A stretch of DNA of 64,000 bases from Candidatus Moraniibacteriota bacterium (GCA_026396175.1 JAPLXG010000013.1:65267-129266); one strand, 5' to 3'. Counted from the stretch's first letter, positions 23,773 through 30,987 are shown. A program made the numbers and translations. Notes: a model not told the origin generated them from the letters alone.

Positions 23773-24390
23773 CTACTTCTTTTTTAAAATAATTTTTCCT
23801 CTCGTTTTTCTATTCTCATCGTTTCCGTAAAAGCCACTAATCTCTTTTGGCTTACACTCTTCAAAATTAAGAATGGCAAAGCCACAATGTCCCACAAAAC
23901 CAGTATTTGCTAGGTCTGTTTCTGTCGGGTTATTTGTATATTTATAACCCAAAATCCATTCTTCTTTATTGTTTTGATTTTTTTCAAAATAATTAGAGGA
24001 GCTTTTAAATTTTGATTGATCAAAATTGCCAGAGTATATAAAACCGCCATCTGTCTTTTTGATTTCTATTTTGCCGATTCCTTTGGTATTGTATTGTGAA
24101 TTTTCCCAATCATATTTATAAGAACTAGAATATTCCATTTCCCATTTTCCCGTGATGTCTGGATATTCTTGAAATCCAATGAATATAAATATTTTTTTGA
24201 TTAACCAATGCTTATTCCATAAATATTTTTCGTAAATAAAATTTAGAAAATAAAGAATCAAAAAAATTATAGCCGAGACGATGCTGTATTTCCAGAAATT
24301 TAGCCTGGGAAATCTATTGCTTACTGCATAAAATGCAAAAGTCAATAATACAGATATCGAAACAATTTTTTTCAAATCTAATTTTGTCAT
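23773..24390 (-). CDS. 2TM membrane protein with beta-rich C-terminal domain; candidate effector (Cap15-like/SLATT-like) of the adjacent NTase
   Basis: Start MTKLDLKK at 24390 overlaps the upstream stop (ATGA). Two TM helices (IVSISVLLTFAFYAV, IVSAIIFLILYFLNFI) are followed by a soluble Gly/Tyr/Lys-rich domain of about 125 aa. The region is AT-rich. Confidence 0.55.
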   Translation of the reverse strand: MTKLDLKKIVSISVLLTFAFYAVSNRFPRLNFWKYSIVSAIIFLILYFLNFIYEKYLWNKHWLIKKIFIFIGFQEYPDITGKWEMEYSSSYKYDWENSQYNTKGIGKIEIKKTDGGFIYSGNFDQSKFKSSSNYFEKNQNNKEEWILGYKYTNNPTETDLANTGFVGHCGFAILNFEECKPKEISGFYGNDENRKTRGKIILKKK

Positions 24391-25319
24391 AGCTTTTCTA
24401 AAATAAGACCGGCACTTTTTGAGATAAATATTTTTGCATTGTCTAACCCCCATCCATTTTTAGATAAAAACAGTAAGTCTTGACCATTGGCACATTTATA
24501 ATACTGCAATGATCCATTTTCTGAATCGTTAAGTGTATTTTGCAATACATTAATCACGATGCTTTGATAGCTTCCGTTAAATACGGGAGCAGGACAATTA
24601 TAAATCAGATTTTCAATGAAATATGACGGAGCAAGCTTTGCATCCATTTCATTTTTTTCATTTAGTTTTTTTCTGATATTTTTAAAAATTCTTATTGAAT
24701 CTTTAAATTTACCCTCCGTATCGCGATTGAGAGCTTCACAATTTTTTTTATGTTCTTTTGGATAATTTATAATTAAATCATTTGTTTCTGTGTTGTAAAA
24801 TTTTATGCCAGCTACATATTGATCAGTCGTATAAAAAGTAAAACGCCCATACTTTCTGTGATGAAAGGCAGGAATTACATCAGCATTTACGCGTAAAGTA
24901 TTTTTAGGTATTTTTATGCTTTTTCCCCCATACTCAATGGTCGTTCCCGAAAAATATTTTTGCAAAGAAGCATAAACATCTTTTTTGAATTGAGCGAATT
25001 GATATGCGCTTTTATTTGAGTAAAATGAGTGAAAATCTTTCTTTTCTTCTTCTGTTAATTGGTTTATATCATACGAAAATACAGAATTTAATTCAATCAC
25101 CACATCAACATCGCTATCTTCGGTAATATTTGTGCTATTTGCATATGATCCTTGCAGATAAATTTCATAGTTTTCTGCCTTAATTTCATATCCATGATTA
25201 TTTTTTGCAAATTCCGATAAATAAGCCGCCAAAGCTTTTCTAATTTCTTCGTGGGTGTATTTATATTTTGTTGCAGTTGGCGATGAAGCCCATGATTGTA
25301 GTTGTTGCTCCGATATCAT
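24387..25319 (-). CDS. minimal Pol-beta-superfamily nucleotidyltransferase, SMODS/CD-NTase-like
   Basis: 310 aa. GS-x11-DVDVV (LQGSYANSTNITEDSDVDVVIE) is followed by a third acidic strand (VNADVIPAF). The start overlaps the vsr stop (ATGA). The pairing with a downstream 2TM protein fits CBASS-like modules. Confidence 0.6.
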   Translation of the reverse strand: MISEQQLQSWASSPTATKYKYTHEEIRKALAAYLSEFAKNNHGYEIKAENYEIYLQGSYANSTNITEDSDVDVVIELNSVFSYDINQLTEEEKKDFHSFYSNKSAYQFAQFKKDVYASLQKYFSGTTIEYGGKSIKIPKNTLRVNADVIPAFHHRKYGRFTFYTTDQYVAGIKFYNTETNDLIINYPKEHKKNCEALNRDTEGKFKDSIRIFKNIRKKLNEKNEMDAKLAPSYFIENLIYNCPAPVFNGSYQSIVINVLQNTLNDSENGSLQYYKCANGQDLLFLSKNGWGLDNAKIFISKSAGLILEKL

Positions 25320-25734: not shown

Positions 25735-26823
25735 TTATTTCAGAAATCTGATTTGTAAATTCAACTTGAAAAACAACTTGCCGTTTTCTTCATACAATTC
25801 ACCATAGCCATATCTGGTCGTGCTTGGTGCGTCAAATTTGGTGTTTTCATACAAATAAGAACGAAATTCATCTCGATTATACAAATGGTAGCATACCACA
25901 TCTCCATTTTCTTTTACCACAATATAGCCTCCTTGCGCTTTCGAAAAACCATCCCATGGTTTGCTGGGCACCATGCCGAGCGCAATCGCATCTAAAAAGT
26001 TTTTTATTTTGTATTCGTAATTCGTGAGCGATAATCCGAATTTTTGTTTCATATCCTCATTTTTGGAAAGCTCTTTTGTTAAATCAGCAACGGTTCTGTG
26101 TGTATTCGAGAAAAAATCCAAAAGCATTTGAGCGATAAATTCCGGCAATGCAGTATCAATCATTTTCATATTGAATTCGAATTGTTCATTTGAAACTCCA
26201 GCATATCTGAAAACCCCGCCCTGTTCCGTGATTTTGCTTACACGATCACGAATTTGCGCATTTGTTTGAATCGCATTAACTTTTGAAAGGTCTCCACTGA
26301 ATTCACTGATTTCATAAATGAAATTTGTTGTTTGTCCCGGGTTTAACAACGTAGAAGCTCCGCCAACCATAGACTTGATGGAAAAACCGAGCATCGGCAT
26401 TGTTTTTGAAATTGTGTCATAAATAATTGCCACCAAATCAGCTTTCTTTGCATTGCTGGCTTTAACTTTTGTGCAAAGCAATTCTTTCATTAATTCTTGC
26501 GCTTCGGGAATATTAAAAGAACGACTTCTTTCGTTTTTTATTTTTTCAAATATTTTCAAAGTTTTTTCCTTGAGTGAGTCATTGTTAAATTCTTTTAACA
26601 ATACGCCTTCCTCGTTGGTTATTAAAACCTTGGTTGCCGACTCAGAAATGTCATAAATTTTAGTTGATTCATCTTTTTCTTCTCTGATAATTTTATGAAA
26701 AACAAAAAACTTACCGTCAATTATTTCAAGATTTTTATCGGCAGCAAAAATCTTTCTTTCCTCTAAAATTTTTAGAAAAGCGTAAAATTCCGACCATTCT
26801 CCTTTGTTATTTCCTGTTTCCAT
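25735..26823 (-). CDS. putative type II restriction endonuclease (HpaII-like size and context)
   Basis: 362 aa with no recognisable motif. It sits between the C5 methyltransferase and vsr, overlapping the methyltransferase gene by 17 nt. The M-R-V arrangement mirrors known HpaII-type cassettes. The call rests on context. Confidence 0.4.
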   Translation of the reverse strand: METGNNKGEWSEFYAFLKILEERKIFAADKNLEIIDGKFFVFHKIIREEKDESTKIYDISESATKVLITNEEGVLLKEFNNDSLKEKTLKIFEKIKNERSRSFNIPEAQELMKELLCTKVKASNAKKADLVAIIYDTISKTMPMLGFSIKSMVGGASTLLNPGQTTNFIYEISEFSGDLSKVNAIQTNAQIRDRVSKITEQGGVFRYAGVSNEQFEFNMKMIDTALPEFIAQMLLDFFSNTHRTVADLTKELSKNEDMKQKFGLSLTNYEYKIKNFLDAIALGMVPSKPWDGFSKAQGGYIVVKENGDVVCYHLYNRDEFRSYLYENTKFDAPSTTRYGYGELYEENGKLFFKLNLQIRFLK

Positions 26824-28486
26824 ATTTTTTTAAAGTTTTAACTATTTCTTCAGCCACCGCTTGAATTGCCGGAACGGCAACTGAATTTCCAAGTTGCTTC
26901 ATGGCCTGAACCGATGAAAAATTTGGTGGAAATTCGTACCAATCGGGAAAACCTTGCATTTTTAATCCCTCTTTCGGTCCAAGCTGAACAATCTTTCCAT
27001 TAACTCTGTAAGCGTCCCAATTTCTGCGATCGGTTATTTTGCTTCCGCGCCCACCGACACGCAATGTAAATCCTATTTCCTTGTCGCATTTTCCATTGAA
27101 AATATCTGACAAGGTATATTTCAATTCCTTGATTGGTTCGGGAAATTTAAAATCTATCGAAGTATCCTTAAAACCAACCATGAAAAGACGAGGACGGTGT
27201 TGAGGTAATCCAAAATCAGAGGCTCTGACAATTTGCGGAAAGAAAGAATATCCCAATTCTTTCGTAATAACCCTTTCTATGGTTTTAAATGTTTTTCCAT
27301 CGTCATGACTTAATAGGCCACGCACATTTTCCAGAAAAAATGCCTTTGGCTTTTTTTCTTTAATTATTTTTACAATATCAAAAAACAAAGTTCCACGAGT
27401 TTCGCTAAATCCTTTTTTGAATCCGGCTTGAGAAAATGGCTGACAAGGAAATCCCGCTGTCAAAATATCAAAATCCGGGATATCTTTTGTTTTAATTTTT
27501 GTAATATCGCCAATGAAATTTCCAGAATCAAACATTTCAGGAGAAATTTTATAAAGATTGTGTCTGTATGTTTTTTGAGCGGGTCCGTCCCATTCTGATA
27601 CGAAGACACATTCCGCTCCTGCATTATGAAATGCAATATGGAAACCGCCAATACCTGCGAATAAATCTATAAATCGCAAATTGTCACTCTTCTTTTTGTT
27701 TTTTGCCATTGAGTTATTATAAAAATATAATTGATTTGCATCTACCAGCAAATCAAACAGGGAGGCTTGCGAGCCTTCCGCCACATATTCCGTGTTTGTT
27801 AATTCCACATTCTTCAAGTCACCAAGTATGCTATGCACCCCGTTTTTTGCAACAATTAAAAAATCGATAACATTTACGCCCATTAATTGCCCGGCTTCAA
27901 TTATCCTTTTTGCGACCTGCTTGTCCTGCTCACTTGGTTTCGGATCACCTGATGGGTGATTGTGAATAAGAATTACACCCGCTGCGTGCATTTCCAATCC
28001 GGGGGCAAAAATTTCTCGCGGGTGAATAATGCTTTTGTCCAATGTTCCGATTGAAATGGTTTCTTTTTTTATCAGAGCGTTACGTGCGTTCAAATAAAGA
28101 CAAATGAGATGTTCTTGTTTCTTGTCTTTTAAGTCCAAAACAAGATTAATGGCGTCTTGTGCTGACAAAATTAAATTATCCAAAGAATTTTGTTTGTTAA
28201 AAATTCTTCCGGTTAATGCGAGTGCTGATGAAATCTGCAACGCCTTCGCTTGTCCTATTCCTGAAATTTTCATTAAATCAGCAACTGAAACATTTAATAA
28301 ATTATCTCCAAATTTTTTGATAATCTTTTGTGATAATACTTTTACATTAGTGCCTTTAATCCCACTGCCAAGCAAAATAGCCAAAAGCTCGCTATCAGTT
28401 AAAGCATCCGGTCCTTTTTCCAGAAATTTTTCTCTGGGGCGATCAAATTTTGGTATATCTTTAATTTTAGGCATATTTGATGACAT
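26807..28486 (-). CDS. RadC-like JAB/MPN domain fused to DNA cytosine-5 methyltransferase (Dcm)
   Basis: N-terminal part of about 230 aa: HhH region (LMKISGIGQAKA), then JAMM motif HNHPSGDPKPSEQD. C-terminal part of about 320 aa: motif I FIDLFAGIGGF, motif IV GFPCQPFSQAG, motif VI ENV, and C-terminal motifs. The reading frame is continuous. Confidence 0.75.
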   Translation of the reverse strand: MSSNMPKIKDIPKFDRPREKFLEKGPDALTDSELLAILLGSGIKGTNVKVLSQKIIKKFGDNLLNVSVADLMKISGIGQAKALQISSALALTGRIFNKQNSLDNLILSAQDAINLVLDLKDKKQEHLICLYLNARNALIKKETISIGTLDKSIIHPREIFAPGLEMHAAGVILIHNHPSGDPKPSEQDKQVAKRIIEAGQLMGVNVIDFLIVAKNGVHSILGDLKNVELTNTEYVAEGSQASLFDLLVDANQLYFYNNSMAKNKKKSDNLRFIDLFAGIGGFHIAFHNAGAECVFVSEWDGPAQKTYRHNLYKISPEMFDSGNFIGDITKIKTKDIPDFDILTAGFPCQPFSQAGFKKGFSETRGTLFFDIVKIIKEKKPKAFFLENVRGLLSHDDGKTFKTIERVITKELGYSFFPQIVRASDFGLPQHRPRLFMVGFKDTSIDFKFPEPIKELKYTLSDIFNGKCDKEIGFTLRVGGRGSKITDRRNWDAYRVNGKIVQLGPKEGLKMQGFPDWYEFPPNFSSVQAMKQLGNSVAVPAIQAVAEEIVKTLKKYGNRK

Positions 28487-28725: not shown

Positions 28726-29367
28726 CTATTCTTCTTTATCCGTAAACACCACCAATCGCTGGGGATAACTTTTGGCGTCTTTATTCCAAGCTCCTTCGCA
28801 AGTGATGAGATTGAGGTGCGCTTTCCCATCACTTGAACTAAATATCTCCGAAGCGTCTGCGCCCGGTTCATAGCTTCGACTTTCACGCACCACAAAAGAA
28901 ATACTCGCGCCATCAGCATCTTCGATAGATAATTTATCGCCTTTGCTCAATTTATGCAGATTATCAAACACAGATCCTTTTCCATTTTTCCATGTTCCAT
29001 AATGGCCAGCGATAACCGCGCTGCCATTTTCCCCGGGACGAGTCCCCAGCTTGAACCATCCCACCTCATCCGGACCTTTTGGCGTATCCATTGCTCCGGC
29101 AGAAGTGAGGCCCAGAGATTCAACAGCGGAGTCAACGCCAATCCCGGAGATTTTGAGCCGCACCGGCACACCGACACTTCCTTGTTCTTGTTTTGGAAGA
29201 GTATTGATATTTTCGAGAGGCAACGCTAAACTATTTTGAACCCGTCTATCCCCGAGCGGCCGAATAAAGTAAAACAAAAATACGGCAAACAATACCGCTC
29301 CCGCGAAATTAACTGCTAACAATATTCGTCCAGTTAAGTTTTTTGATGAATACATAAATAATCTCAA
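28726..29367 (-). CDS. sortase family transpeptidase (class E/F-like)
   Basis: N-terminal TM anchor, catalytic His region (IAGHYGTW), the TLxTC-type motif LNLITCEG, and a conserved Arg near the C-terminus. Confidence 0.75.
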   Translation of the reverse strand: MRLFMYSSKNLTGRILLAVNFAGAVLFAVFLFYFIRPLGDRRVQNSLALPLENINTLPKQEQGSVGVPVRLKISGIGVDSAVESLGLTSAGAMDTPKGPDEVGWFKLGTRPGENGSAVIAGHYGTWKNGKGSVFDNLHKLSKGDKLSIEDADGASISFVVRESRSYEPGADASEIFSSSDGKAHLNLITCEGAWNKDAKSYPQRLVVFTDKEE

Positions 29368-29485: not shown

Positions 29486-30745
29486 CTAATTGGCGAAGGA
29501 ATTAAAAAACGAAGACACTTTTTGGATAACGGTTTCCCATAGACTGCTATTTTCTTCATCCGGACCAATTCCAGCATTTGGAAGACCAGGAACAGAAACG
29601 GTGACAGTCGCTTTCGCAGTATCTTTCACCTCCTTGCCATTGGTTCCGCGAACGGTCGCTGTATTTGTCTCAGTTTGAGAAACTATTTTAGTGCAAGTGT
29701 ATCGCCATCTTTCATTAGTATCCAGTTTTGAATCATGATCACCATCGCCGGAAACAAATTTTACCGGGCTGCATTTATCATCTTTGATTGATACAAACTT
29801 CAACGCATTATCACCCTCATTTCTCACGTCATATGTATAGGTAACCAGTCCGGGACCGGAATATAGGGCTGAGGGAGTGGCTCTTTTTCGAACGCTTATA
29901 TCAACGTGGTTACTATCATTGTCCTTATTATCATTTGATGAATCATCCGGAGCTTTGCACACTGCATTGGTAATCGTGTTGTGATCCAGCGTAACATTGC
30001 CATCGCGGGCTAACAGACTTCCATCAACTCTTGCGCCATTTGCCACCGTGATTGAGTTAAGAGCCAGAATGTTTCCCACAAACACCGCAGTTGTATTAAT
30101 AGTGGCTGTATTCACTCGCCAAAAAACATTGCAAGCCTGGGCACTGCCTATTAATTCCACTTCAGCACCATTCGGTCCGACAGTCAGTCCGGTTCCATCA
30201 AAACCCATCTCAAAAATAAACACAGCGTTGGAATCGCCTTGTCCATCAAGAATCAGATGACCTGCTCCTTCCGTAATCTGAAACCTGGTATTGGCAGAGG
30301 AATATACGCCTGGGCTCAATGTCTGACCACCCAATTCGGTGGGAATAATTGTCCCCGGCCCTTGCCCGCTTGCATCGTCATATGCAGTTTCTAAGTCAGT
30401 TTTCGCCTTGTCTACCAAGGTTTTATCTGGTGCGGTACCCTTAAAACATGATGTGTCAATACCATCACCTACGTATGCCGAATTAACGCCGTATATTGTA
30501 CTCACACCGCTCATTTGTGAACACCATAGTCCGATACCAGCAGCGGTAGCCGGGCTCAACCCGACATTTCCAGTAATAGCAGAAGCATGACCGGCATCAG
30601 TAATATTAGGGGTCCCGGCCAATATCGCAAAATCATCGGCTGTGCCAAGATCCACCTGCGTCGCGGCATTAACTTTTCCGGAGAAACCAAGCGCAGTCGC
30701 AAAAGCTAATACAACGACCATTGCAATCCAATTAAATTTTTTCAT
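29486..30745 (-). CDS. secreted surface protein with DUF3494 (ice-binding-like) and DUF11 domains
   Basis: Signal peptide. LGTADDFAILAGTPNITDAGHASAITGNVGLSP matches the DUF3494 N-terminal signature. A C-terminal DUF11-like repeat (TYTYDVRNEGDNAL...RWRYTC) follows, and then LPNAG near the end, a possible sortase signal. Confidence 0.65.
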   Translation of the reverse strand: MKKFNWIAMVVVLAFATALGFSGKVNAATQVDLGTADDFAILAGTPNITDAGHASAITGNVGLSPATAAGIGLWCSQMSGVSTIYGVNSAYVGDGIDTSCFKGTAPDKTLVDKAKTDLETAYDDASGQGPGTIIPTELGGQTLSPGVYSSANTRFQITEGAGHLILDGQGDSNAVFIFEMGFDGTGLTVGPNGAEVELIGSAQACNVFWRVNTATINTTAVFVGNILALNSITVANGARVDGSLLARDGNVTLDHNTITNAVCKAPDDSSNDNKDNDSNHVDISVRKRATPSALYSGPGLVTYTYDVRNEGDNALKFVSIKDDKCSPVKFVSGDGDHDSKLDTNERWRYTCTKIVSQTETNTATVRGTNGKEVKDTAKATVTVSVPGLPNAGIGPDEENSSLWETVIQKVSSFFNSFAN

Positions 30746-30908: not shown

Positions 30909-30915
30909 CTTGTGG

Positions 30916-30987
30916 TAGCCCCAAGGAGAGTCGGACTCCTCTTTCCAGGATGAGAACCTGACGTCCTAACCGATAGACGATGGGGCC
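30916..30987 (-). tRNA. tRNA-Glu (anticodon CTC) with non-canonical T-loop
   Basis: The minus-strand sequence ggccccatcgtctatcggttaggacgtcaggttctcatcctggaaagaggagtccgactctccttggggcta folds as a cloverleaf (7-bp acceptor, D-loop with GG, anticodon loop ttctcat, T-stem aggag/ctcct). The T-loop reads tccgact instead of TTCRANY. Confidence 0.5.

What the first reader, a model, noticed from the sequence alone, without database searches (positions are those of the whole stretch)
26807..28486. RadC-like JAB domain fused in frame to a Dcm-type C5 cytosine methyltransferase
A single 559-aa ORF contains an N-terminal HhH plus JAMM/MPN segment (HNHPSGDPKPSEQD, the RadC signature) followed without a stop by a complete m5C MTase (FxGxGG motif I, PCQ motif IV, ENV motif VI). 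RadC-like JAB proteins are common in mobile elements and anti-defence contexts. A translational fusion to the modification enzyme of an RM/Vsr cassette is not a textbook arrangement, and it could couple DNA processing or repair to methylation.
Basis: seen in the sequence. Interest (0 to 1): 0.7.

Follow-up and report, generated by a model that had tools for sequence, protein, structure and literature searches.

The report
RadC-capped methylase of a restriction cassette
A complete RadC protein is fused to the protective DNA methylase of a mobile restriction-modification cassette, through a flexible tether carrying a conserved peptide that looks like a sliding-clamp docking site; the same RadC-plus-tether cap sits on the methylases of at least seven different restriction systems, mostly in ultra-small CPR bacteria.

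Summary
Window 26807..28486 (minus strand) is one 559-aa ORF, probably starting at Met5 (28474). It contains a full RadC (HhH domain plus a JAB domain with intact JAMM ligands) followed by a complete C5 DNA methylase. It is not an assembly artefact: more than 100 protein clusters from independent assemblies have the same architecture. It is the first gene of a ~3.1-kb horizontally moving cassette with an HpaII-family endonuclease and Vsr, inside a low-GC defence island next to a type I CBASS.

New findings:
- The linker holds a 16-residue island, YVAEGxQxSLFDLLVD, conserved as protein and predicted to be flexible.
- RadC plus island is a portable N-terminal cap. One RadC clade carries it onto C5, D12 and N4/N6 methylases of HpaII-, EcoRII-, HaeII-, HinP1I-, NgoFVII- and AlwI-type systems.
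- The QxSLF core matches the bacterial beta-clamp-binding consensus QL[S/D]LF.
- A separate family of stand-alone C5 methylases ends in canonical clamp motifs (QLSLF*, QLDLF*, QLELF*) in 82 of 115 members.

Best reading: a clamp-tethered RM methylase. RadC's catalytic role is unresolved, and self-cleavage is a live rival. I found no publication describing this. Novelty: new variant of a known kind.

The parts
26807..28486 (-). Whole fusion ORF, RadC-linker-C5 methylase. The longest ORF is 559 aa; the likely true start is Met5 at 28474, giving 555 aa.
28241..28465 (-). UPF0758_N / helix-hairpin-helix DNA-binding domain of RadC (aa 8-82)
   Evidence: PF20582 5.4e-24; HHH motif aa 61-85
27827..28165 (-). 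RadC-type JAB domain (aa 108-220)
   Evidence: PF04002 1.6e-37; PDB 2QLC 2.4e-25; well folded in the AF2 model
27923..27964 (-). JAMM metal-binding motif H175-N-H177-PSGDPKP-S185-EQ-D188
   Evidence: Read from the sequence. These residues are invariant in 76 fusions.
27740..27787 (-). Conserved linker island YVAEGSQASLFDLLVD (aa 234-249)
   Evidence: Y234 and F244 in 121/121, Q240 in 119/121, variable flanks; many synonymous codons, so selection acts on the protein; pLDDT 52-62, short helix 243-250
27755..27769 (-). QASLF (aa 240-244), the candidate beta-sliding-clamp-binding core of the island
   Evidence: Q-x-S-L-F in 107/121 fusions; background 7e-5 per residue; consensus QL[S/D]LF; canonical motifs at the C-termini of a related methylase family
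27677..27739 (-). Variable, disordered spacer (aa 250-270). This is the recombination joint where different methylases are attached.
   Evidence: high entropy; similarity to cassette-swapped loci ends at 27752-27714; stand-alone MTases start matching at about 27673; pLDDT 32-47
26810..27676 (-). C5 cytosine DNA methyltransferase domain (aa 271-559). Motif I is FAGIGG, the PCQ catalytic Cys is at 27440-27448, and ENV and motif X (GNSVAVP) are present.
   Evidence: M.HhaI 3.8e-64; PADLOC MTase_II 5e-102
25735..26823 (-). HpaII-family Type II restriction endonuclease. Its start overlaps the methylase stop by 17 nt.
   Evidence: PF09561 9.6e-110, full length; REase_II 3e-91; co-conserved with the fusion in L001-L006 and L032
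25316..25726 (-). Vsr very-short-patch T:G mismatch endonuclease, the last gene of the shared cassette
   Evidence: TIGR00632 132 bits against a cut-off of 98; shared DNA block ends at about 25370

Best explanation
SHOWN. This is one real gene. It encodes a complete, catalytically intact RadC (HhH + JAMM-type JAB) joined by a ~50-residue flexible tether to the C5 methylase of a Type II restriction-modification system. The partner genes are an HpaII-family endonuclease, so the target is presumably CCGG, and Vsr, which repairs the T:G mismatches that 5-methylcytosine deamination creates. The three genes form a ~3.1-kb unit that moves horizontally, mostly among CPR/Patescibacteria. RadC plus tether is a portable N-terminal cap. 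A single RadC clade carries it, and recombination in the variable spacer just after a conserved tether motif has placed it on C5, D12 (N6A) and N4/N6 methylases of at least seven different restriction systems.

INFERRED. The methylase and the nuclease change from system to system while the tether motif YVAEGxQxSLFDLL stays constant. Its partner must therefore be constant too: either RadC itself or a universal host factor. Its Q-x-S-L-F core matches the beta-sliding-clamp-binding consensus, lies in a disordered segment as such motifs do, and stays with the methylase in two natural variants that lost RadC. I therefore propose that the cap docks the methylase, together with RadC, onto DNA-loaded clamps behind replication or repair forks. 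Newly made unmethylated or hemimethylated sites would then be modified before the cognate endonuclease can cut them, a bacterial counterpart of DNMT1-PCNA coupling. What the conserved JAMM site of RadC does there (DNA processing, or cutting the tether) is not resolved.
For: Fusion real and recurrent: more than 100 clusters; single ORFs in about 20 genome loci.
Both halves under selection: catalytic residues invariant in 76 fusions.
RM context.
Mobility: no flank synteny; the shared DNA block runs exactly from the RadC start to the Vsr stop; low-GC island.
Portable cap: the RadC module is 86-91% identical to ours in L010, L012 and L021 while the attached methylase is only 37-45% identical. Partners are PF00145, PF02086 and PF01555. 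REases are EcoRII, HaeII, NgoFVII-like, AlwI and HinP1I.
Single origin: clade A has 21 leaves, all fused or island-bearing except two entries that stop at the end of the RadC core.
Island: conservation, protein-level selection, flexible in AF2 with pTM 0.54, absent from ordinary RadC and from stand-alone methylases.
Clamp motif: consensus from PMC3716654; Q-x-S-L-F in 107/121 fusions against about 0.0035 expected per 50-residue linker.
Independent support: the L035-type C5 methylase family ends in QLSLF/QLDLF/QLELF/QLxLxF in 82/115 members against 2/2281 internal windows, while the fused family has 0/114 at its C-terminus. A CPR exonuclease-like ORF ends in QESLF*.
RadC-loss variants L082 and L084 keep the island on the methylase.
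Functional precedent: replication-associated plasmid methylases that co-immunoprecipitate with Pol I (PMC7736820).
Against: No binding test was possible.
Position 2 of the motif is A/S/G rather than the consensus L in most members.
The conserved YVAEG half of the island is not explained by clamp binding.
Most RadC-less HpaII-type methylases carry no clamp-like peptide at either end, so tethering is clearly optional.
The hypothesis does not explain why a whole, catalytically intact RadC is needed. A bare motif suffices in the L035 family.
L015 and L017 keep RadC and the island after losing most of the methylase, so the cap may have a methylase-independent role.
CCGG is not depleted in the window (observed/expected 1.08), so there is no genomic footprint of restriction pressure.
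Confidence: 0.5

Rival explanations
1. Self-processing precursor. The RadC JAB domain is a metallopeptidase that cuts its own tether at the conserved island, for example after the near-invariant Gly238. This would release a free RadC and a methylase, possibly exposing QxSLF as an N-terminal clamp motif. The fusion would then serve co-expression, stoichiometry or timed activation rather than permanent tethering.
For: The JAMM ligands are strictly conserved in all fusions. The island occurs only where RadC is covalently followed by another domain, and is absent from free RadC and free methylases. The YVAEG half is unexplained by clamp binding. Characterised JAMM enzymes cut after Gly (own knowledge). 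In the two RadC-loss variants, Gly238 is replaced while QxSLF is kept, and L082 starts with Met immediately before the Q. Iyer et al. propose peptidase processing of multi-domain polyvalent proteins (PMC5512222).
Against: Iyer/Aravind argue that RadC-type JAB domains lack the groove that holds a ubiquitin-like tail, and predict nucleic-acid processing instead. No peptidase activity is reported for any RadC in the literature I could search. AF2 gives the island low confidence (pLDDT 52-62), so nothing indicates that it docks onto the JAB domain. The site is a single Gly after Glu/Asp, not Gly-Gly. The Gly238 argument rests on two variants only.
Confidence: 0.2
2. DNA-substrate targeting or repair coupling that does not involve the clamp. 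RadC (HhH + JAB nuclease-like domain) directs the methylase to particular DNA intermediates such as incoming or gapped DNA, nicks or recombination products. The island would bind RadC, DNA or another universal factor such as SSB, RecA or MutL. This is essentially the first reader's idea of coupling DNA processing or repair to methylation.
For: [quoted passage not shown] RadC is predicted to process nucleic acids and is fused elsewhere to ArdC, primase and helicase domains (PMC3239186). L015 and L017 keep RadC plus island next to an HNH nuclease without a functional methylase. ParB-methylase fusions are a precedent for a nuclease-like domain joined to a methylase.
Against: There is no direct evidence for any RadC activity. 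The island's invariant positions coincide with the clamp-motif anchor residues. A related methylase family uses unmistakable clamp motifs. C5 methylases act on duplex DNA, which fits post-replicative rather than uptake-stage action (own knowledge).
Confidence: 0.2
3. Evolutionary by-product. RadC (5' side) and Vsr (3' side) are merely conserved homology arms that let M-R gene pairs be swapped by recombination. The in-frame join would be tolerated but would add nothing to how the methylase works.
For: L012 and L021 share about 79% identical DNA with the window in RadC plus island and again in vsr, while the genes between differ. The same methylase works without RadC in many genomes (L016, L019).
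Against: Every complete member of clade A is fused. The junction stays in frame across three methylase classes, including Vsr-less systems. The island is conserved at protein level with free synonymous change. The JAMM residues are invariant. A neutral read-through would decay.
Confidence: 0.07
4. Artefact. Two adjacent genes (radC and the methylase gene) were merged by a sequencing or assembly error or a recent frameshift.
For: The window's linker contains a TATAAT followed by the ATG of Met259, and a terminator-like hairpin, which superficially resembles an intergenic region.
Against: More than 100 clusters from NCBI, JGI, ENA and Logan assemblies have the same open junction. The internal Met is present in only 20 of 117 sequences. 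The hairpin is not conserved and shows no covariation. The linker carries a protein-level conserved motif.
Confidence: 0.01

Closest known systems
Type IIP restriction-modification systems with a C5 methylase and an associated Vsr (HpaII-type, CCGG)
   Same: The gene order M-R-V, an HpaII-family REase (PF09561, full length), a complete ten-motif C5 methylase and Vsr. RadC-less versions of the same cassette exist at 82-89% identity (L016, L019).
   Different: The methylase carries a ~260-residue N-terminal cap: a full RadC plus a tether with a conserved motif. Classical HpaII-type enzymes lack this. Specificity was not tested.
RadC / YicR family (UPF0758; PF04002 + PF20582; NCBIfam NF000642)
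   Same: The N-terminal 225 aa score above the curated equivalog cut-off and have the HhH domain and the intact E...HxH...S..D JAMM site.
   Different: Ordinary RadC is a free ~220-230-aa protein with no C-terminal island. Here it belongs to a distinct clade (at most 50% identity to any free RadC) that is always fused to a DNA methylase and travels with an RM cassette.
Published RadC fusions and polyvalent proteins of conjugative elements (Iyer, Aravind and co-workers; PMC3239186, PMC5512222)
   Same: RadC-type JAB domains combined in one polypeptide with DNA-acting or counter-restriction domains, and a modular, recombining architecture.
   Different: Those are ArdC, DnaG-primase or DinG-helicase fusions, or giant multi-domain proteins of plasmids, ICEs and phages. 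This one is a two-enzyme protein in a chromosomal defence cassette, and no hits were found in the plasmid, phage or viral collections.
Beta-sliding-clamp-binding motif proteins (Pol II QLGLF, UmuC QLNLF, Hda, MutS; consensus QL[S/D]LF)
   Same: The island core Q-x-S-L-F-D matches the anchor residues, sits in a flexible segment, and is internal like the UmuC motif, which is also followed by Asp.
   Different: Position 2 is usually A, S or G rather than L. An extra conserved YVAEG segment precedes the core. Binding is untested. I found no report of a clamp motif on a bacterial DNA methylase.
Replication-coupled methylases: eukaryotic DNMT1 (PIP box/PCNA; own knowledge) and plasmid M.EcoGIX / M.BceJIII (PMC7736820)
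   Same: The concept of a methylase working at the fork. M.EcoGIX co-immunoprecipitates with Pol I, and the authors suggest the clamp as a possible intermediary.
   Different: The lineages and domain organisations differ. M.EcoGIX is a single-strand-specific orphan anti-restriction methylase, whereas this is the duplex-acting methylase of an RM system with a RadC cap.
Other N-terminally extended RM methylases: ParB-methylase (Bce_0392, cited in PMC5512222) and the Vsr-C5 methylase fusions seen here (L033, L036, L037)
   Same: An accessory DNA-acting domain is fused upstream of a methylase through a linker. The L033 and L036 linkers also contain a clamp-like EQLSIF.
   Different: The accessory domain is different (ParB nickase, Vsr). 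None involves RadC.

Membership tests
RadC family (PF04002/PF20582; NCBIfam NF000642, TIGR00608) | Scores above the curated family cut-offs over the full model length | tested here: met
   NF000642 scores 220 bits (cut-off 180) over model positions 1-206 of 212; TIGR00608 scores 212 bits (cut-off 134); PF04002 1.6e-37; PF20582 5.4e-24
RadC family (PF04002/PF20582; NCBIfam NF000642, TIGR00608) | JAMM-type metal site E...H-x-H-x7-S-x2-D | tested here: met
   E158, H175, H177, S185 and D188 are present. The four ligands are invariant and E158 is at least 90% conserved in 76 fusions.
RadC family (PF04002/PF20582; NCBIfam NF000642, TIGR00608) | Free-standing ~220-aa protein | tested here: not met
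   It is fused to a 300-aa methylase. Free RadCs are at most 50% identical and end at about aa 220 of the query.
C5 cytosine DNA methyltransferase (PF00145; TIGR00675) | Conserved motifs I (FxGxG), IV (PCQ with catalytic Cys), VI (ENV) and X (GNSV) | tested here: met
   FAGIGG at 276-281, PCQ at 347-349, ENV at 386-388, GNSVAVP at 533-539. All are invariant in the family. PF00145 2.5e-80; M.HhaI 3.8e-64.
C5 cytosine DNA methyltransferase (PF00145; TIGR00675) | Methylates cytosine C5 in a defined sequence | not testable with these tools
   Needs expression with methylation-sensitive digestion or long-read methylation calling
HpaII-type Type II RM system (+Vsr) | Cognate REase of the HpaII family adjacent and co-oriented | tested here: met
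   PF09561 9.6e-110, profile positions 1-359 of 359; 17-nt overlap with the methylase stop; co-conserved in L001-L006, L014, L016, L019 and L032
HpaII-type Type II RM system (+Vsr) | Recognition of CCGG | not testable with these tools
   Inferred only from REase family membership. CCGG is not depleted in the window (observed/expected 1.08).
Beta-clamp-binding motif (QL[S/D]LF / QLxLxL) | Sequence match to the consensus at the anchor positions | tested here: inconclusive
   Q, S, L and F match in 107/121 members and position 2 varies (A/S/G/T/V). Exact QLSLF occurs in L029 and P0215. Consensus taken from PMC3716654.
Beta-clamp-binding motif (QL[S/D]LF / QLxLxL) | Located in a flexible or terminal segment | tested here: met
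   AF2 pLDDT is 62, 52, 32 and 47 across aa 231-270, between two well-folded domains
Beta-clamp-binding motif (QL[S/D]LF / QLxLxL) | Physical binding to the DnaN hydrophobic cleft | not testable with these tools
   No dnaN in the window or loci, and no complex prediction is available
Polyvalent proteins of phages and conjugative elements (Iyer et al. 2017) | Encoded by a phage, prophage, plasmid or ICE and delivered during invasion | tested here: not met
   No island-bearing RadC in 72,556 plasmid or 50,697 phage records. The only IMG/VR hit covers the methylase half alone. The neighbours are chromosomal housekeeping genes.
JAMM/MPN+ isopeptidases | Ubiquitin-like or defined peptide substrate | not tested
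   No Ubl gene was noticed in the cassette. Iyer et al. argue that RadC lacks the tail-binding groove. Self-cleavage at the island remains a hypothesis.

The most novel reading that the evidence does not exclude
Bacterial restriction-modification methylases can be physically coupled to the replisome through beta-clamp-binding motifs. This would happen either through a bare C-terminal QL[SD]LF tail (the L035-type family) or through the RadC-plus-island cap described here. That would make them functional analogues of DNMT1-PCNA maintenance methylation. It would also give the enigmatic, near-universal RadC protein its first concrete molecular context: a clamp-associated, methylation-linked DNA- or tether-processing enzyme.
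Probability: 0.3. Interest if true: 0.85.

Novelty: new variant of a known kind. Interest (0 to 1): 0.7.

Why it matters
RM systems must methylate every new site before their own nuclease finds it. How that race is won after replication, repair or horizontal arrival of the cassette is usually attributed to expression control alone. A methylase tethered to the sliding clamp would be a spatial solution to this problem, and I found no description of one in bacteria.

RadC is one of the most widespread bacterial proteins still without a known function. Its original 'DNA repair' assignment is disputed, and radC is induced during competence yet dispensable for transformation. A Rosetta-stone fusion that is always to a DNA methylase, through a conserved and experimentally tractable 16-residue motif, turns that open question into simple tests: clamp binding, self-cleavage, and methylation kinetics.

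The modular cap also shows how RM cassettes diversify in CPR bacteria. These organisms have tiny genomes and are thought to depend on imported DNA (own knowledge), which puts a premium on defence and self-protection.

Tried and rejected
1. Assembly or frameshift artefact: rejected.
2. Conserved internal restart at Met259 behind the TATAAT: rejected. The Met is present in 20 of 117 sequences.
3. Terminator-like hairpin in the linker (27756..27731) producing RadC-only transcripts: not conserved. RNAalifold finds no structure and pairs break without compensation.
4. The island as a DNA-level recombination or regulatory site: rejected, because invariant residues use 3-8 synonymous codons.
5. A resident chromosomal radC with an RM insertion hot spot downstream: rejected, because no flanking gene is shared with loci whose cassette is 80-93% identical.
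6. Phage, plasmid or anti-defence origin: no support.
7. The island as part of the RadC fold or of the methylase fold: rejected. It is absent from free RadC and from free methylases, and AF2 confidence is low.
8. Clamp-like N-terminal peptides of the RadC-less methylases L016 (QLSLLL) and L019 (QMQMIF): not shared by their relatives, so chance.
9. P0392 as a natural 'split' gene: it is an annotation artefact and the RadC frame is continuous.
10. dN/dS on the truncated L015/L017 derivative, to ask whether RadC survives RM loss: dS is saturated (above 1), so the result is only qualitative. The 'decay' proved to be replacement by an HNH_2 nuclease gene.
11. CCGG avoidance as a footprint of restriction: none.
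13. Ten literature searches found no description of RadC-RM methylase fusions or of clamp motifs on bacterial methylases. The library lacks most subscription journals and REBASE, so absence is not proof.
Full report
**1. The observation**

Window 26807..28486 holds a single 559-aa ORF on the minus strand.
- Pfam finds UPF0758_N (aa 8-82), the RadC JAB domain (aa 108-220, 1.6e-37) and the C5 DNA methylase domain (from aa 270, 2.5e-80).
- NCBIfam places the N-terminal part above the curated RadC equivalog cut-off (220 against 180 bits) and the C-terminal part in dcm/TIGR00675.
- The quoted motifs are all present: HNHPSGDPKPSEQD is the JAMM pattern H-x-H-x7-S-x2-D, and motif I FAGIGG, PCQ and ENV are in place.
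- The likely true start is Met5 (28474). Homologues begin MPKIKD/MAKLKD, and the identical NCBI protein, annotated from a Candidatus Moranbacteria MAG, is 555 aa.

**2. It is not an artefact**

A search of 5.8 billion proteins returned more than 100 clusters (at 90% identity) with the same three Pfam domains. They are 552-596 aa long and 58-100% identical, and come from NCBI, JGI, ENA and Logan assemblies. Named sources include Moranbacteria, Gracilibacteria, Beckwithbacteria, Kerfeldbacteria and Parcubacteria. In a species-level genome collection, about 20 loci contain the uninterrupted fused ORF. Two of these are *Bathymodiolus* symbiont records: L020 is uninterrupted, and L022 stops part-way through the MTase. 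In 76 diverse fusions the JAMM ligands H175, H177, S185 and D188 and the methylase PCQ and ENV residues are invariant.

**3. Context**

The next genes on the same strand are a full-length HpaII-family endonuclease (PF09561, 9.6e-110), whose start overlaps the methylase stop by 17 nt, and Vsr. This is a Type II RM system, presumably recognising CCGG, with its deamination-repair nuclease.

No gene flanking the cassette in the window has a counterpart in loci whose cassette proteins are 80-93% identical. At DNA level the shared block runs from the RadC start codon (about 28475) to just before the Vsr stop (about 25370). The cassette lies in a ~5-kb low-GC island (0.30-0.38 against 0.40-0.48) together with a type I CBASS. 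Ordinary chromosomal genes sit on both sides: an ExoX-like exonuclease, prenyl synthases, sortase, a surface protein and SMC. The unit is horizontally mobile, but it is not found in the phage, plasmid or viral collections.

**4. The linker is not a spacer**

Across 121 fusions, residues 234-249 (YVAEGSQASLFDLLVD) form a conservation island. Y234 and F244 are invariant, A236 is present in 120/121, and G238 and Q240 in 119/121. The segments on both sides (222-233 and 250-271) are variable. The invariant residues are encoded by many synonymous codons, so selection acts on the peptide and not on the DNA. AlphaFold2 folds both halves confidently but gives pTM 0.54, so the model gives no confident overall arrangement of the two halves. 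It gives pLDDT 62, 52, 32 and 47 across aa 231-270, with only a short helix at 243-250. This is the behaviour of a short linear motif in a flexible tether. The internal Met259, the TATAAT in front of it and a terminator-like hairpin are not conserved.

**5. RadC plus island is a portable cap**

- In L010, L012 and L021 the RadC module is 86-91% identical to ours, but the attached C5 methylase is only 37-45% identical.
- In L030 the partner is a D12-class N6-adenine methylase. In L029 and L034 it is an N4/N6 methylase.
- The nucleases that follow are EcoRII plus Vsr, HaeII, NgoFVII-like (twice), a second methylase plus an AlwI-type IIS enzyme, and HinP1I.
- Similarity to the swapped loci ends at aa ~245-257. 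Stand-alone versions of our methylase (L016 at 89%, L019 at 82%) begin to match at aa ~271. The joint is therefore the variable spacer right after the island.
- An exhaustive search of 1.84 billion representatives shows that ordinary free RadCs (37-47% identical, ~220-230 aa) align only to about residue 220 and lack the island.
- In a neighbour-joining tree of RadC cores, the fused and island-bearing sequences form one clean clade of 21 leaves containing all three methylase classes. A second small fused group stands apart.

The cap therefore arose once, perhaps twice, and was then recombined onto many methylases.

**6. What the island might be**

Methylase class and nuclease vary while the island is constant, so its partner must be RadC itself or a universal host factor. 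Its core Q-x-S-L-F-D matches the beta-sliding-clamp-binding consensus QL[S/D]LF. Examples are Pol II QLGLF and the internal UmuC QLNLF, which is followed by Asp residues (PMC3716654). The pattern Q-x-S-L-F is present in 107/121 fusions, and exact QLSLF occurs in some. The pattern Q.[SD]LF occurs at 7e-5 per residue in background ORFs, which is about 0.0035 per 50-residue linker.

Scanning all fetched DNA for the pattern outside RadC fusions gave two telling cases: a PolB-exo/RNase-H-like exonuclease in a Kerfeldbacteria MAG that ends ...HQESLF*, and a stand-alone C5 methylase (L035) that ends ...KKKEPQISLFANEI*. Following up the methylase, 82 of 115 members of its family carry a clamp-type penta- or hexapeptide in the last 16 residues (QLSLF*, QLDLFQ*, QLELF*, QLTLF*, QLELGF*, QLSLSF* and others). 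Only 2 of 2281 internal windows of the same proteins match. The RadC-fused family has none at its C-terminus (0/114).

Related C5 methylases have thus independently acquired textbook clamp motifs in the textbook position. This makes the clamp reading of the island much more credible. Two natural variants that lost RadC point the same way. L084 lost the JAB core by internal deletion, and L082 has no RadC at all and a new Met directly before the island's Q. Both keep Q-x-[ST]-L-F-D-L on the methylase.

**7. What remains unexplained**

- Clamp binding does not explain the conserved YVAEG half of the island, nor why a whole RadC with a strictly conserved active site is attached.
- In the two RadC-loss variants the otherwise near-invariant Gly238 is replaced. 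This fits, on n = 2, the idea that this half serves RadC, possibly as a cleavage site for a JAMM peptidase.
- L015 and L017 keep RadC, the island and a 75-aa methylase stub next to an HNH_2 nuclease that replaced the rest of the system. This hints at a role for the cap beyond the methylase.
- Most RadC-less HpaII-type methylases have no clamp-like peptide at all, so the cap is an optional accessory.

**8. Comparison with what is known**

[quoted passage not shown] The nearest functional precedent is the replication-associated plasmid methylases M.EcoGIX and M.BceJIII. The MTase co-immunoprecipitates with Pol I, and the authors suggest the sliding clamp as a possible intermediary (PMC7736820). 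Ten literature searches found no report of a RadC-RM methylase fusion or of clamp-binding motifs on bacterial methylases. The library lacks REBASE and most subscription journals, so this is absence of evidence only.

**9. Verdict**

The feature is a new variant of a known kind: a Type II RM system whose methylase carries a RadC-plus-motif cap.

| Explanation | Confidence |
|---|---|
| Clamp-tethered methylase, RadC role open | about 0.5 |
| RadC-mediated self-processing of the tether | about 0.2 |
| DNA-substrate targeting independent of the clamp | about 0.2 |
| Neutral recombination by-product | about 0.07 |
| Artefact | about 0.01 |

Interest is 0.7. The architecture is widespread yet I found no description of it. 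It yields a precise, cheap experimental handle on RadC, and it points to replisome-coupled methylation in bacterial RM systems.

Noticed in passing
L035:10010-11092 (+), and proteins P0270-P0389; also L075 (MTase ends ...PIQLELF*): A family of stand-alone ~350-aa C5 DNA methylases has a basic tail after motif X that ends in canonical beta-clamp-binding motifs at the extreme C-terminus (QLSLF*, QLDLFQ*, QLELF*, QLELGF* and others). 82 of 115 members match, against 2 of 2281 internal windows. In L035 the gene sits between vsr and a second C5 methylase. I found no publication describing clamp motifs on bacterial methylases.
   Followed up: partly
window 23773-25319 (-): Directly downstream of vsr lies a two-gene type I CBASS: an oligonucleotide cyclase (24387-25319; PADLOC 1.6e-88; NCBIfam DS2_2 263 bits, below its cut-off of 350) and a Cap15-like 2TM effector (23773-24453). 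The cyclase start overlaps the vsr stop by 4 nt. The pair is not part of the shared RM block in other loci. Together with the RM cassette it forms a ~5-kb low-GC defence island.
   Followed up: partly
L015:10013-11041 and L017:9358-11138: A derivative of the cassette keeps RadC, the island and the first ~75 aa of the methylase (336 aa, both ending KSFSL*). With an ATGA overlap it is followed by a 257-aa HNH_2 endonuclease gene that replaced the rest of the methylase and most of the REase. REase and Vsr remnants remain in L017. The stub looks constrained (dN/dS about 0.07, but dS is saturated).
   Followed up: partly
L033:9368-10984, L036:420-2000, L037:5944-7623: Vsr-C5 methylase translational fusions (527-560 aa) occur in Clostridia and Methanimicrococcus MAGs. 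L033 has an HpaII-family REase downstream. In L033 and L036 the tether between Vsr and the methylase contains a clamp-like EQLSIF.
   Followed up: no
L082:3812-4969 and L084:107-1264: Two natural RadC-loss variants retain the island on the methylase. In L082 a tRNA-Ser is followed by an ORF reading ...DYVANE-MQGTLFDLLVD... with no RadC. In L084 the RadC start and an HhH remnant are joined in frame to NYIANSIQSSLFDLMID and the methylase, with the JAB core deleted. In both, the usually invariant Gly238 is replaced.
   Followed up: partly
L009:6264-7067 (+): A 268-aa RNase_H_2 / PolB-exonuclease-like protein in a Kerfeldbacteria MAG ends exactly in ...HQESLF*. This is a plausible C-terminal clamp-binding motif of the same Q-x-S-L-F flavour as the island.
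   Followed up: no
window 27703-27731 (+): A near-consensus sigma-70-like promoter (TTGCCA-17-TATAAT, 11 of 12 matches) lies antisense to the fusion gene inside the linker-coding region. The total number of promoter-like hits in the region is no higher than in shuffles (17 against 20.4), and conservation was not examined.
   Followed up: no
window 27731-27756 (-): A 9-bp inverted repeat followed by a T-rich run (terminator-like) is encoded by the FDLLVDANQ codons of the linker. All 9 pairs are kept only in a few loci (L003, L017). There is no covariation and no RNAalifold consensus, so it is judged incidental.
   Followed up: yes
L083:3392-5047 (GCA_002778405.1, PFBX01000026.1): The deposited annotation of a Magasanikbacteria MAG calls only a 348-aa 'DNA cytosine methyltransferase' from an internal Met, although the RadC reading frame is continuous upstream. 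Public annotations therefore under-report this fusion. GmrSD_N and HEPN genes follow the cassette there.
   Followed up: yes
window 29486-30745 (-) and 28726-29367 (-): Upstream of the cassette are a sortase and a 419-aa secreted protein with an ice-binding-like domain plus DUF11/DUF7507 repeats, probably a sortase-anchored surface protein. A tRNA-Glu lies at 30913-30987.
   Followed up: no
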